Part shown: positions 57,512 to 61,789 of the stretch, piece after piece
Position numbering within the stretch: the first letter of the stretch is position 1
Layout: every line of letters begins with the position of its first letter
From: a virus
Length of the DNA stretch: 64,000 bases
IMG/VR virus record: IMGVR_UViG_3300003690_003472
Span: 96,001-160,000 of that record
Strand: one strand, 5' to 3'
The notes under the pieces: model-generated
What the model saw: only the letters and a program-made list of their open reading frames with translations
Told to the model about the DNA's origin: nothing
Database searches by the model: none
Program-made: the position numbers and the translations under genes

Positions 57512-57777
57512 TAGAAGTATATAGAAACTCAACTCAAACATATACTTTGAGAGAAGTATATATTAATCCAAAACATGTTGTTTCTTTAAGAGAAGACGAT
57601 AGCATTAAAAAAAAGTTAAACGAAGGTACTCTTCCAGCTGGCTTAGATGATTCTCATCGTTTCACGAGACTTGTATTAGACAAAGGCCGAACAGGCGCTG
57701 AATTAATTATAGTTGGTGAACCCAAAACCATACAAGAAAAAATGAAGGAGAAAAAAAATGAACTTCTCCTTGGATGA
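57499..57777 (+). CDS. Hypothetical protein (weak FlbD-like pattern)
   Basis: YINPKHVVSLRE...TRLVL...IIVGEPKTIQEKM. Confidence 0.45.
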   Translation: MVRLVEVYRNSTQTYTLREVYINPKHVVSLREDDSIKKKLNEGTLPAGLDDSHRFTRLVLDKGRTGAELIIVGEPKTIQEKMKEKKNELLLG

Positions 57778-58033
57778 TAAACATTACATTTTGTGGATTA
57801 AATCTCATTGTCCGTGGTGTCAAAAAGCAGTTGATATTTTATCTAACAAACTCTTGTCTTATAAAGTGTTTGATATGGAAGAGCGCTTAGAGGAACTAGA
57901 GTTGTTGAAGAACAAGCTTGATTGGCAAACCGTACCAATTGTTTTTGAAGTTAACGTAAAAGGCGACTTTAAATTAGTTGGAGGCTACACTGACTTAGAA
58001 AAATATCTAGGCGAGACAAATGATTCCATGTAA
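57758..58033 (+). CDS. Glutaredoxin
   Basis: CPWC, TVPIVF, VGGYTDL. Confidence 0.9.
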   Translation: MNFSLDDKHYILWIKSHCPWCQKAVDILSNKLLSYKVFDMEERLEELELLKNKLDWQTVPIVFEVNVKGDFKLVGGYTDLEKYLGETNDSM

Positions 58034-58780: not shown

Positions 58781-58788
58781 ACTATTTA
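58781..58788 (+). promoter_or_regulatory. Candidate late promoter ACTATTTA (leaderless context)
   Basis: 4 nt before ATG 58793. Confidence 0.55.
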
Positions 58789-58792
58789 TTTT

Positions 58793-59251
58793 ATGACCAT
58801 TCTCGCTTCTTTTTTGATCGCCTATTTATATGGTGGCGTCGCAGAATGGATTTTTCATAAATATATTCTCCACGGCCGCGGAAAAAACAAAAAAAGTATT
58901 TTTTCTTTTCACTGGCACTCTCACCATAAAGCATGTAGAAAAAACAACAATATTGATAAAAATTATAAATTTCCCCTTGCTACCCCAGTAAGAAGAGAAA
59001 TTTTATTTTTATCTTTGCTTAGTTTAATTCATTTTCCAATTTATTTTATTGCACCATATTTTTTTATTGGAATTGTTTTGTATCTCTGTAGATATTTTTA
59101 TTTTCATAGGCGCGCCCACCTAGATGTACAATGGGGACGAAGAAAAATGCCATGGCATTATGATCACCACATGGGAAAAAATCAGGATTTAAACTGGGGA
59201 GTTACCGTTCAGTGGATTGATAAACTATTTAATACAAGAAGGAAATATTAG
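58793..59251 (+). CDS. Fatty acid hydroxylase/sterol desaturase superfamily membrane enzyme
   Basis: His boxes HKYILH, HWHSHH, HRRAH and HYDHH plus TM segments. Confidence 0.85.
   Translation: MTILASFLIAYLYGGVAEWIFHKYILHGRGKNKKSIFSFHWHSHHKACRKNNNIDKNYKFPLATPVRREILFLSLLSLIHFPIYFIAPYFFIGIVLYLCRYFYFHRRAHLDVQWGRRKMPWHYDHHMGKNQDLNWGVTVQWIDKLFNTRRKY
59224..59231 (+). promoter_or_regulatory. Candidate late promoter ACTATTTA
   Basis: Before the GGAGG RBS and GTG 59263. Confidence 0.55.
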
Positions 59252-59262
59252 GAGGCTTTATT

Positions 59263-59547
59263 GTGAAACAAATGAAAAATACTTTATTTTGGTCAACAAC
59301 TCTCATAATAACGGCCTTAATATATATTTATACACTTAGTAGCTTCCCATTAGCACACGCAAAACCACCTCCAACGAAATCAAAATTTTATGACTTTAAT
59401 GAGCAAATAATTGATGGTGAAATTCGCAAACCAACCGCAACATATATAGATTCACGCGAAAAAGCAAAATTTGAAAGGCTCTTGAAATTGAAAAAATCTT
59501 TCATGCCTGAGCTTTTTAAAACTCACAAAAACAAAGTATTTAAATAG
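59263..59547 (+). CDS. GltF/CglF-like gliding-motility protein with signal peptide
   Basis: Signal peptide ending AHA, then YDFNEQIIDGEIRKPTATYIDSREKAKFERLLKLKKSF, matching my recollection of the GltF core DF.D..IEG.L.KP.G.Y...R.......LI..R..F. Confidence 0.7.
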   Translation: MKQMKNTLFWSTTLIITALIYIYTLSSFPLAHAKPPPTKSKFYDFNEQIIDGEIRKPTATYIDSREKAKFERLLKLKKSFMPELFKTHKNKVFK

Positions 59548-59727: not shown

Positions 59728-60399
59728 GTGTCAATAAATGTGAAGGCTCGGTATCTTTTTTTAGCTCTTGTACCATACTTCGCATTCTATTTTTTAATTC
59801 AATCATTAATTCAAACAGGTAGTTATAATTTGTTAACAGAAATGGATTTAAAAATACCTTTTATACCTTATTTCATTTGGATATATCACACAATTTTACC
59901 GGTGATTCTTGTGACAAGCTTTCTTATATTACAAAAAAAAGATATATTTTTAGCGTTAATGTTTTCAAATATTTTTGCTGGTATTGTATTATGTTTGTTT
60001 TATGTATTATTTCCAGCATTTTACCCAAGAGAAATGTTTGTTGATACAGCTACGATATCGGGATGGCTCATTGAAATGACACAATCTATCGATGGCCCCC
60101 ACAACACTTTCCCATCAAGCCATGTAACTTTTGCATGGCTTTTGGTGTTTTTTGCAAACCTTTCCCAATATGTAAAAGGACATCGATGGCTTCGTCTTGT
60201 TTATTTTTATTGGGCTATCCTGATATCAATTTCCACTCTCATGCTTAAACAACACTATATAGTGGATGTAATTTCTGGTTTTGCACTAGCTATACTCATG
60301 TATTTCTTGTGTAAGCGTTTATTTGTGAGAGAGGCCGCCCCCAAACAACTAATTACTTTAGATGTTAAATTCGTTTCCTCAAGAAGCCTTGCAGAATGA
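59728..60399 (+). CDS. PAP2-superfamily membrane enzyme (AUR1/IPC-synthase-like type)
   Basis: NTFPSSH and STLMLKQHYIVDV motifs, about six TM helices. Lacks the KxxxxxxRP motif of true phosphatases. Confidence 0.8.
   Translation: MSINVKARYLFLALVPYFAFYFLIQSLIQTGSYNLLTEMDLKIPFIPYFIWIYHTILPVILVTSFLILQKKDIFLALMFSNIFAGIVLCLFYVLFPAFYPREMFVDTATISGWLIEMTQSIDGPHNTFPSSHVTFAWLLVFFANLSQYVKGHRWLRLVYFYWAILISISTLMLKQHYIVDVISGFALAILMYFLCKRLFVREAAPKQLITLDVKFVSSRSLAE
60348..60355 (+). promoter_or_regulatory. Candidate late promoter ACTAATTA (leaderless context)
   Basis: 6 nt before ATG 60362. Confidence 0.5.
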
Positions 60400-60964
60400 A
60401 TGCCACTTAATTATACAAGAGGTTTTGGGGGATTCTTATATTAGAGTGTTCATTGGAGATTTCTCTCTTGTAGAAGATGACAAGAAAAAAATTACACATG
60501 TAAACTGTAAAATATTTTTTTCAAACAACCGAGAAGAAACAATAGAAGGAAAAGGGCACGGAATCGTTGATGCTTTATTTAATTCTATTATACAGAAATA
60601 TTCCAGCGAATATACTTCCTTAACTCAAGTAAGGTTTGATGACTTTATCATGAAAGTTAATTTTAAGAGCGCCAACAGCAGAAGTACAGACTCACCAGTT
60701 GAAATAAAATTAGCTTTGAAAACTATTACTAGGAGAGAGCAAAATATATTTTTTTCTGCAACGGCGCGCTCAATGGTGGTTGCTGCAATATCAGTCATTA
60801 GAAAAGCGTTTGAATATTTTATAAATGCGGAAGCTGCCGTATTAGTGCTACAAGAAAGCATAAAAGACGCGCGCGCGCGCAACAGGAGAGATTTAAACAA
60901 TAAATATGTTTCTCAAATGGCACAGTTGGTACAAATAGTTTCTTATGAAGATGTGCTCTTATAA
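60362..60964 (+). CDS. Stand-alone LeuA-type allosteric (regulatory) domain protein
   Basis: EGKGHGIVDALFNSI ~ GNGPVDAVYQAI. STDSPVEI ~ GKDALGQV. RSMVVAAISVIRKAF ~ DIVESSAKAMVHVL. Confidence 0.7.
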   Translation: MLNSFPQEALQNECHLIIQEVLGDSYIRVFIGDFSLVEDDKKKITHVNCKIFFSNNREETIEGKGHGIVDALFNSIIQKYSSEYTSLTQVRFDDFIMKVNFKSANSRSTDSPVEIKLALKTITRREQNIFFSATARSMVVAAISVIRKAFEYFINAEAAVLVLQESIKDARARNRRDLNNKYVSQMAQLVQIVSYEDVLL

Positions 60965-60985: not shown

Positions 60986-61186
60986 GTGAAGATAGGTGAT
61001 ATAGTTCAATGGACGCCCGTTTATGCACAGCATAAATATATGCCGAGGTGGATGGGTATAATTATTGAAATCAAAGAAGCAAAAGATAAAACGCAAGTAA
61101 AAGTTTATTGGTTCAGCAACAACGAAAATTATTACATGGCAGATTGGACTTCAGTTGAACAGCTAAAAAGAATTTCTAGTTCTTAA
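60986..61186 (+). CDS. Small SH3/KOW-like protein
   Basis: MKIGDIVQW...GIIIEI...VKVYW. Confidence 0.55.
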   Translation: MKIGDIVQWTPVYAQHKYMPRWMGIIIEIKEAKDKTQVKVYWFSNNENYYMADWTSVEQLKRISSS

Positions 61187-61196
61187 TATTTTTTTA

Positions 61197-61226
61197 TTGA
61201 CAAATATGTATTTTTTTTGTTACACT
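61197..61226 (+). promoter_or_regulatory. sigma70-type promoter
   Basis: TTGACA-N18-TACACT with TG extension. Confidence 0.6.
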
Positions 61227-61264
61227 TCTAATAGGAATATTTTTATTTTTGTGGGAGGAACAAA

Positions 61265-61453
61265 ATGATTAAAATTGGAGATACTGTTAAAGTAATTGCC
61301 AAAGAAAACGAAAAATACGGGAAAGTTGGCACCGTAACTAATATATTAGATTATGAAAGATATCAAACTGCTCGCGTATCCTTTAGTTCAAGCTTGTTTG
61401 ATTATATTGATGTTAATGATTGGAGCCTGAAAAAAATATGCTCAAATTCATAA
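61265..61453 (+). CDS. Small KOW-like protein
   Basis: IKIGDTVKVI.....YGKVGTVTNI. Confidence 0.65.
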   Translation: MIKIGDTVKVIAKENEKYGKVGTVTNILDYERYQTARVSFSSSLFDYIDVNDWSLKKICSNS

Positions 61454-61629
61454 AAACAGGTGATTTAGTAAGAGTCCATGGACACAATGGACCCACCATT
61501 AATGTAATAACTAAAATAGAAAAGCGTCGTAATCATTATGGAACTCATGATATTTATGCCAACGTTTTTGGCTGTGACTCAGAGTTTTTTCATGAAAAAG
61601 ACATGGTACTAATCAGTGCAAGTCGGTGA
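61438..61629 (+). CDS. Small SH3/KOW-like protein
   Basis: IKTGDLVRV. GGAG RBS before ATG 61438. Confidence 0.55.
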   Translation: MLKFIKTGDLVRVHGHNGPTINVITKIEKRRNHYGTHDIYANVFGCDSEFFHEKDMVLISASR

Positions 61630-61789
61630 TTTGGTTGAGCATGAAAAGTTTGGCATAGGAATCGTAACTGAAATCAGCGAACCTACTCCTCTTTTTGCAT
61701 ATCAAATCGCGTCAGTTAATTTTAACAATGGTCAATTGGAGCAACTAGTAACGACAGTTTTACATCAAATAAAAAAAGAAAAAAATTGA
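61616..61789 (+). CDS. Tudor-like miniprotein resembling the UvrD/PcrA C-terminal domain (not in ORF track)
   Basis: GTG 61616 opens MQVGDLVEHEKFGIGIVTEI...VNF..G (57 aa), stop 61787-61789. Confidence 0.6.
   Translation: MQVGDLVEHEKFGIGIVTEISEPTPLFAYQIASVNFNNGQLEQLVTTVLHQIKKEKN

What the first reader, a model, noticed from the sequence alone, without database searches (positions are those of the whole stretch)
59263..59547. Phage-encoded homolog of the gliding-motility component GltF/CglF
Seen: a signal peptide followed by a ~40-aa core (DF...I.G...KP...Y...R.K.K...L......F) that aligns without gaps to my recollection of GltF, under a late motif with a strong RBS. Known: GltF is a small exported part of the Agl-Glt gliding apparatus of Myxococcota and Bdellovibrionota. 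I know of no described phage carrying a Glt component. Inference: it identifies the host group as predatory or gliding bacteria and suggests the phage jams, boosts or masks the motility/predation complex, possibly its own receptor.
Basis: partly seen in the sequence, partly recalled or inferred. Interest (0 to 1): 0.8.

Follow-up and report, generated by a model that had tools for sequence, protein, structure and literature searches.

The report
Phage copy of gliding-machine adaptor GltF
A large uncultured deep-sea phage carries a conserved, exported copy of GltF, the small periplasmic adaptor of the myxobacterial gliding (Agl-Glt) envelope machine; hundreds of related marine phages carry it too, which points to marine Myxococcota as their hosts and to the phage acting on that machine.

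Summary
ORF 59263-59547 (+) encodes a 94-aa protein. It has a Sec-type signal peptide and a mature part that matches NCBIfam CglF/GltF (E 4.5e-9, gapless, but 36 bits against a cut-off of 90).

The window belongs to a 185-kb T4-like myovirus record from a hydrothermal-vent metagenome.

The gene is not a one-off. At least 519 marine metagenome stretches and 13 IMG/VR contigs carry it, always without other glt genes. It is under strong purifying selection (dN/dS about 0.15).

GenBank phages hold no homologue, and I found no paper describing one.

The nearest cellular relatives are up to 75% identical over the mature part. They form a GltF subtype that is the last gene of gltC-gltD-gltE-gltF operons in uncultured Myxococcota MAGs. 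Phage and bacterial copies share every strongly conserved column, so the phage protein most likely binds the same partners.

Whether it sustains or jams the machine is not settled. The host is inferred, not shown.

Verdict: a real and new variant of phage host-mimic genes. Interest is moderately high.

The parts
59224..59231 (+). Promoter-like motif ACTATTTA (context AAACTATTTAATAC), 31 nt upstream of the start codon
   Evidence: It is the most enriched 8-mer in the 60 nt upstream of genes in this genome. It occurs 26 times on the + strand and 7 on the - strand, and also lies upstream of the sheath (13277) and neck (10505) genes. Late timing is inferred from that company.
59250..59255 (+). Shine-Dalgarno AGGAGG, 7 nt before the GTG start
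   Evidence: Read directly from the sequence.
59263..59547 (+). CDS of the phage GltF-like protein (94 aa plus stop)
   Evidence: ORF list. NF033764 E 4.5e-9. At least 519 marine relatives. dN/dS about 0.15.
59263..59361 (+). Signal peptide, residues 1-33, with predicted cleavage after A-H-A
   Evidence: Sequence features read by eye. AF2 helix at residues 3-26. All relatives carry a hydrophobic N-end followed by A-x-A / K-P-P.
59377..59430 (+). Conserved extended segment KSKFYDF..IDG..RK (residues 39-56). It aligns with the GltF strand that is modelled to pair with the TonB-like C-terminal domain of GltG.
   Evidence: Invariant columns K41 F42 Y43 D44 F45 Q48 I50 G52 P57. hhalign to canonical GltF. 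The published AlphaFold model is in PMC11761067. The mapping of its numbering is my inference.
59452..59538 (+). C-terminal helix, residues 64-92 (..KFERLL.LKKSF.P.LF....VFK). Its end aligns with the GltF helix that is modelled to sit in the GltC TPR crevice.
   Evidence: AF2 helix 64-92. Invariant columns R65 F70 R72 L73 L76 K77 S79 F80 F93. PMC11761067.
58793..59251 (+). Upstream neighbour: 152-aa membrane protein of the fatty-acid hydroxylase superfamily, with its own ACTATTTA at 58781
   Evidence: Pfam PF04116 E 4.6e-10. Syntenic with the GltF-like gene in L002 and L004.
59728..60399 (+). Downstream neighbour: 223-aa PAP2-superfamily membrane protein
   Evidence: Pfam PAP2_3 E 2.7e-16, PAP2, PAP2_C. 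It co-occurs with the GltF-like gene in L002 and L004 and in 10 of 80 metagenome loci.

Best explanation
The gene is a phage-borne, host-derived copy of GltF. GltF is the small, largely unfolded periplasmic adaptor of the Agl-Glt/Nfs class of trans-envelope machines. The phage copy belongs to the subtype that ends gltC-gltD-gltE-gltF operons of uncultured Myxococcota.

Shown:
- It is homologous to GltF.
- It is carried alone, without other glt genes, by many related marine phages.
- It is under strong purifying selection and has the phage's own base composition.
- It keeps every strongly conserved position of its bacterial counterparts.

Inferred:
- It is transcribed with the virion genes from the phage's ACTATTTA promoter.
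- It is exported by Sec and cleaved after residue 33.
- In the periplasm it takes GltF's place in the host machine, using the KFYDF..IDG strand to pair with the TonB-like C-terminal domain of a GltG/GltJ-type protein and its C-terminal helix to bind the TPR protein GltC.

My best guess at the effect: the phage supplies a working adaptor and so controls the coupling between the inner-membrane motor and the outer-membrane part while host gene expression fails. This is comparable to a phage-encoded replacement subunit.

The host is most likely a marine member of Myxococcota.
For: - Family: NF033764 E 4.5e-9. hhalign to canonical GltF 95.5%, E 1.5e-8; to the second bacterial subtype 99.8%, E 1e-29.
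- Nearest relatives: about 45 of 401 genomes of one phylum score at least 100 bits with the phage-family profile. In 21 loci fetched, the gene follows GltC-, GltD- and GltE-like genes and usually ends the operon.
- Identity of the mature part: up to 75% over 56 gapless residues to this subtype, 48-53% to the second subtype, and 31-33% to canonical GltF.
- Names on identical database proteins: Myxococcota bacterium, Deltaproteobacteria bacterium.
- Phage residence: record with T4-type head and sheath. No GltC/D/E/J-like gene in the phage genome, in 13 IMG/VR loci, or in 80 metagenome loci, of which 58 share other genes with this phage. Contexts with gp32, RecA, DnaB, sheath. Nearest Atlas clusters are 79-100% viral. 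Gene GC is 0.31 against 0.46-0.70 in bacteria.
- Selection: 95 of 95 copies have the same 56-codon core. Synonymous sites are saturated, and dN/dS is about 0.15.
- Same constraints as the bacterial protein: 25 of 56 core columns are at least 90% conserved with the same residue in both groups, and no column carries a fixed group-specific difference.
- Partner sites: the published AlphaFold model of GltF bridging GltG's TonB-like domain and GltC (PMC11761067). GltF is required for gliding and for GltD clustering (PMC3169522).
- No globular fold: pTM 0.29, an extended segment plus one long helix. This fits a linear-motif adaptor.
Against:
- The host is not identified. The phage's GC (0.37) is far below that of the bacterial loci that carry the closest homologues (0.51-0.69).
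- The phage's head protein was not found in 401 genomes of that phylum.
- The function of these glt-like operons in uncultured marine Myxococcota is itself unknown. Their proteins all score below NCBI's equivalog cut-offs for the M. xanthus gliding proteins.
- Expression alongside the virion genes is not what one expects of a maintenance gene, and would suit exclusion or release functions as well.
- An intact two-site adaptor made in excess could uncouple rather than sustain the machine.
Confidence: 0.5

Rival explanations
1. Interference or exclusion. The exported phage GltF, made in excess late in infection, saturates the TonB-like domain and GltC separately. This uncouples the motor from the outer-membrane complex. 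Gliding or surface transport stops, and an outer-membrane Glt component that serves as the phage's receptor is hidden or de-energised. That would block superinfection or stop progeny from being lost on debris.
For: The gene sits under the motif shared with virion genes. It lies between two membrane-lipid enzymes, which looks like an envelope-remodelling island conserved in L002 and L004. GltF is a bridge with two separate binding segments in the published model, so an excess could titrate its partners. By general knowledge, phage-encoded receptor blockers exist (T5 Llp; Cor of phi80/N15).
Against: No column of the phage copies differs systematically from the bacterial ones. A dedicated blocker would be expected to lose one of the two binding segments. 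Nothing shows that a Glt component is the receptor.
Confidence: 0.3
2. Lysis helper. The protein loosens the trans-envelope Glt tether late in infection, so that the endolysin and spanin-type functions can rupture the envelope.
For: The gene is probably expressed late and the protein is exported to the periplasm. The Glt complex spans the envelope.
Against: No lysis genes were recognised next to it. The sequence is that of a normal GltF. No precedent is known to me.
Confidence: 0.07
3. Passenger gene. It is a recently captured host gene with no role for the phage, or an assembly chimera between phage and host DNA.
For: It is a short host-like gene in a variable region of small genes.
Against: At least 519 metagenome relatives, and 13 IMG/VR contigs in differing phage contexts. 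Identical pieces occur in runs of other studies. Gene GC is 0.31, matching the phage rather than any bacterial copy. dN/dS is about 0.15 with saturated synonymous sites. It has its own phage promoter motif and a strong RBS.
Confidence: 0.03

Closest known systems
GltF / CglF of Myxococcus xanthus (MXAN_4868), NCBIfam NF033764
   Same: A small exported protein. It shares the core Y-D-F ... G ... K-P ... R ... F-x-P-E-[ML] pattern, aligned without gaps over 50 columns. It lacks a globular fold (PMC11761067).
   Different: Only about 31-33% identical to canonical-type GltF, and 36 bits against a cut-off of 90. It is encoded by a phage, alone, not in a gltD-E-F-G cluster.
GltF subtype that ends gltC-gltD-gltE-gltF operons of uncultured Myxococcota MAGs (unnamed; found here)
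   Same: Up to 75% identical over the whole mature part, with the same length and the same conserved columns, including the C-terminal ..VFK end. It is interleaved with the phage copies in the tree.
   Different: It is bacterial, in high-GC DNA (0.51-0.69), and embedded in the operon. The phage copies have GC of about 0.31-0.45 and no glt neighbours.
NfsF of the M. xanthus Nfs spore-coat machine, and the GltF subtype of single-operon OMP-OMP-GltC-D-E-F-GltJ-like clusters (Lujinxingia, Persicimonas, other Myxococcota)
   Same: Paralogous small adaptors of Glt-class machines (PMC3858216). The second subtype is 48-53% identical to the phage protein.
   Different: It has an acidic ..ETAEE.ALQ C-end and forms a separate, well-supported clade.
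Phage-encoded replacement subunits and receptor blockers (by analogy only; cyanophage PsbA, T5 Llp; my own knowledge)
   Same: A host-like envelope or membrane component expressed by a lytic phage to control a host machine.
   Different: No sequence relation. The target here would be a motility/surface-transport machine, and I found no report of that for phages.

Membership tests
CglF/GltF (NCBIfam NF033764, equivalog) | Whole-protein score at or above the curated cut-off (90 bits) | tested here: not met
   36.2 bits. The closest bacterial subtype also scores only 32-46 bits. Neither is therefore an equivalog of the M. xanthus protein.
GltF family in the broad sense (homologues of CglF) | Statistically significant, collinear similarity to the family profile over the mature protein | tested here: met
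   E 4.5e-9, residues 38-87 on profile positions 35-84. hhalign 95.5% and 99.8% to two bacterial subtypes. 75% identity to the third subtype.
GltF family in the broad sense | Small protein (about 80-110 aa) with a type I signal peptide, and therefore periplasmic | tested here: met
   94 aa. N-terminal basic and hydrophobic stretch with A-H-A, read from the sequence. Helix 3-26 in the model. No dedicated signal-peptide predictor was available.
GltF family in the broad sense | Gene lies in a glt/nfs cluster next to gltE and a GltG/GltJ-type gene | tested here: not met
   No GltC/D/E/J-like gene in the phage genome or in 94 phage or metagenome loci. The feature is met by its bacterial relatives.
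GltF family in the broad sense | Binds the TonB-like C-terminal domain of GltG and the TPR protein GltC; needed for gliding and focal-adhesion clustering | not testable with these tools
For GltF itself these contacts are only modelled (PMC11761067). The genetics are in PMC3169522.
Host-derived auxiliary gene of a phage | Closest relatives are cellular; the gene resides stably in phage genomes, with phage composition and signals, under purifying selection | tested here: met
   (cellular relatives). (phage contexts). (GC 0.31, dN/dS about 0.15). (RBS and promoter motif).

The most novel reading that the evidence does not exclude
A whole, so far hostless clade of large T4-like marine and deep-sea phages infects uncultured marine Myxococcota. 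It uses an exported GltF copy to take control of the host's Agl-Glt-class trans-envelope motor complex, for example to freeze or mask the surface part that serves as its receptor. That would be the first case of a virus targeting a bacterial gliding or surface-transport machine.
Probability: 0.3. Interest if true: 0.8.

Novelty: new variant of a known kind. Interest (0 to 1): 0.62.

Why it matters
GltF is a component of the bacterial focal-adhesion gliding machine, and its role there is known only from genetics and structure models. A natural, highly conserved phage version offers three things:
- a compact probe for the adaptor's binding sites;
- a marker that suggests marine Myxococcota as hosts for a large, abundant group of uncultured marine myoviruses;
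- a first hint that phages manipulate gliding or surface-transport machines.

It also shows that GltF comes in at least three subtypes tied to different operon layouts. That is useful for annotating glt-like systems outside the model organism.

Tried and rejected
- **Phage-specific C-end.** I first thought the basic C-end (..KEKVFK) was phage-specific and marked a dominant-negative decoy, because the first bacterial relatives I found had acidic ends. I rejected this once a phylum-wide search found bacterial copies with the same end.
- **Foldseek** of the AF2 model against the PDB: no match. This is expected for an extended model with pTM 0.29.
- **Pfam and PHROGs:** nothing significant for the protein.
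- **GenBank phages by tblastn:** no match.
- **Closest cultured phages by head, sheath and DnaE:** all distant (about 30-50% identity) with unrelated hosts, so they give no host clue.
- **The phage's major head protein in 401 genomes of the Myxococcota sample:** one distant hit only, so no binned phage contig or prophage links phage and host.
- **The genome-contig scan with strict peptide patterns:** found only 3 loci and missed the closest subtype.
- **Sequencing runs:** no RNA holder listed. The contigs laid were short and of low depth. They confirm identical pieces in other studies but say nothing about expression.
- **ESM Atlas:** could not read the window's own protein or that of G002. 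Stored homologues were used instead.
- **CRISPR-spacer matching** was not attempted.

Full report
**What is there**

Window 59263-59547 (+) is an open frame of 94 codons. It starts with GTG, 7 nt after AGGAGG. Residues 1-33 have the make-up of a Sec signal peptide: lysines, a hydrophobic stretch, and A-H-A before K34. I read this by eye, because no signal-peptide predictor was available.

NCBIfam NF033764 (adventurous gliding motility protein CglF) matches residues 38-87 to profile positions 35-84 of 88, without gaps. The E-value is 4.5e-9 and the score 36.2 bits, below the curated equivalog cut-off of 90. Pfam and PHROGs give nothing.

**Where it lies**

The window is bases 96001-160000 of a 185,564-bp virus record, estimated 84% complete. 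All large genes are on one strand. They include a T4-type major head protein, a 1027-aa tail sheath, neck proteins and a ribonucleotide reductase.

The closest cultured phages by head, sheath and DnaE are distant and have unrelated hosts.

The stretch was assembled from a hydrothermal-vent metagenome. It recurs, partly as identical pieces, in seawater and vent runs of other studies.

The gene is preceded by ACTATTTA (59224-59231). This is the most enriched 8-mer upstream of genes in this genome: 26 copies on the coding strand against 7 on the other. It also precedes the sheath and neck genes. Expression together with virion genes is therefore likely, but it is inferred.

**A phage family, not a one-off**

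- The protein has 648 relatives at 55-80% identity in the metagenome protein collection, many from Tara samples, including a <0.22 µm fraction.
- It has 13 relatives in IMG/VR contigs.
- Contexts examined are phage-like: gp32, RecA, DnaB, RNR, DnaE, sheath, HNH.
- Of the 80 metagenome loci, 58 share at least one further gene with this phage.
- HMMs that I built from bacterial GltC-, GltD-, GltE- and GltJ-like proteins find nothing in the phage genome or in any of these 94 loci. The gene therefore travels alone.
- The nearest ESM Atlas clusters are 79-100% viral.
- 50,697 GenBank phage records hold no homologue.
- All 95 copies recovered have a core of exactly 56 codons. Among 89 distinct DNA versions, synonymous sites are saturated (median pS 0.89). 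For unsaturated pairs, dN/dS is about 0.15.
- The gene's GC is 0.31, like the phage's.

**Bacterial relatives: three subtypes of GltF**

Identical proteins in the protein collection are labelled Myxococcota bacterium, Myxococcales bacterium, Lujinxingia litoralis, L. vulgaris, Persicimonas, Bradymonadaceae, and Deltaproteobacteria bacterium. Two MAGs carry other labels, Planctomycetota and Pseudomonadota. Atlas clusters name Myxococcota as the commonest phylum. Within this one phylum sample I find three subtypes.

| Subtype | NF033764 score | Gene context | Identity to the phage mature part |
|---|---|---|---|
| Canonical | 59-91 bits | between GltD/GltE-like genes and a GltG-like protein (FHA plus AgmX/PglI C-terminal domain) | 31-33% |
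| Second, acidic ..ETAEE.ALQ end | 26-45 bits | conserved operon OMP-OMP-GltC-GltD-GltE-GltF-GltJ-like (zinc ribbon, GYF, TonB-like C-end) | 48-53% |
| Third | 32-46 bits | last gene of gltC-gltD-gltE-gltF operons, in DNA of GC 0.51-0.69 | up to 75% over 56 gapless residues |

The third subtype turned up when I searched 401 genomes of the phylum with the phage-family profile. That search gave 187 genomes with a match, about 45 of them at 100-128 bits. In the 21 loci fetched, this subtype follows the GltC-, GltD- and GltE-like genes. It includes the ..VFK end that I had first taken for a phage peculiarity.

In a tree of the core, the canonical and second subtypes form separate, well-supported clades. 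The phage copies and the third subtype are interleaved on an unresolved backbone of 58 columns. The number and direction of transfers therefore cannot be read from the tree. The restriction of the operon context to bacteria makes bacterium-to-phage the sensible direction.

**What the protein is like**

AlphaFold2, run with 50 relatives, gives the signal-peptide helix, an extended segment (27-63) with a tiny hairpin, and one long helix (64-92). Mean pLDDT is 75.6 and pTM 0.29. There is no structural neighbour in the PDB.

This fits the published description of GltF as mostly disordered. In the AlphaFold model of the Agl-Glt complex, a GltF strand pairs with the TonB-like C-terminal domain of GltG, and the C-terminal helix lies in a crevice of the TPR protein GltC. 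GltF thereby bridges the inner-membrane and outer-membrane sub-complexes (PMC11761067). GltF is essential for gliding, is recruited to focal-adhesion clusters, and is needed for GltD clustering (PMC3169522). NfsF is its paralogue in the spore-coat machine (PMC3858216).

By alignment, the phage segment KSKFYDF..IDG..RK corresponds to the strand, and ..KKSF.P.LF.. to the helix. This mapping of the published numbering is my inference.

**How it most likely works**

In 25 of 56 core columns, at least 90% of both phage and third-subtype sequences carry the same residue. No column has a fixed group-specific difference. The phage copies are therefore under the same constraints as the bacterial adaptor, and most likely bind the same partners.

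I therefore read the gene as a phage-supplied, exported GltF that takes the adaptor's place in the host's Glt-class machine. Whether this keeps the machine coupled, as a replacement subunit would, or uncouples it by excess, cannot be decided from sequence. In the second case the result could be exclusion or receptor masking.

An unaltered two-site adaptor favours replacement. The company of virion-gene promoters and of two membrane-lipid enzymes favours an envelope-remodelling or exclusion role. I put replacement or occupancy at about 0.5, titration or exclusion at 0.3, and other roles at about 0.1.

**Host**

The nearest cellular homologues point to Myxococcota. However, the phage's GC (0.37) is well below that of the loci carrying them. 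Its head protein was not found in the 401 genomes sampled. Bdellovibrionota could not be searched. The host assignment is thus a reasonable inference, not a result.

**Novelty**

The family is known. A phage-borne member is not. I found no paper that reports one. A 2026 preprint surveying 790 myxophages does not mention glt genes.

I class the finding as a new variant of a known kind: a host-derived phage gene aimed at an envelope machine. As by-products it yields the three-subtype picture of GltF and a host lead for a large clade of uncultured marine myoviruses.

Noticed in passing
window 58793-59251 and 59728-60399: The GltF-like gene is flanked by a fatty-acid-hydroxylase-superfamily membrane protein and by a PAP2 protein that hits PAP2_3 and PAP2_C. 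From my own knowledge, those Pfam families include sphingolipid head-group transferases. The trio is syntenic in IMG/VR loci L002 and L004, and it looks like a membrane-lipid or envelope remodelling island.
   Followed up: partly
whole virus record; window 1708, 10286, 10505, 13277, 31283, 41655, 58781, 59224: ACTATTTA(A/T), 20-45 nt upstream of start codons, is the most enriched upstream 8-mer (26 on the + strand, 7 on the -). It precedes the sheath and neck genes, so it is a candidate late promoter of this phage group.
   Followed up: partly
window 60986-61789: Four consecutive small genes (57-69 aa) begin with similar M-x-(I/V)-G-D-(I/T/L)-V motifs.
   Followed up: no
L135 6507-7778; L145 6998-8017 (bacterial loci): Some Myxococcota genomes carry two or three tandem copies of the third GltF subtype behind gltE. 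The extra copies are more divergent.
   Followed up: no
window 60362-60964: A 200-aa protein with a weak LeuA-dimerisation-domain match (E 4.6e-4, below cut-off). It co-occurs with the GltF-like gene in 13 of 80 metagenome loci and in L002, L004 and L007.
   Followed up: no
window 57758-58033: A 91-aa protein with a C-P-W-C motif, glutaredoxin/NrdH-like by eye. It lies in a block of small genes conserved with L002, L004 and L006.
   Followed up: no
L016 55-10179 (bacterial locus, genome G002): A complete single-operon Glt-class cluster: two OMP_myx_plus beta-barrels, then GltC-, GltD-, GltE-, GltF- and GltJ-like genes, with no FHA-type GltG. The D-E-F-J order is conserved in 11-13 genomes, including Lujinxingia.
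   Followed up: partly
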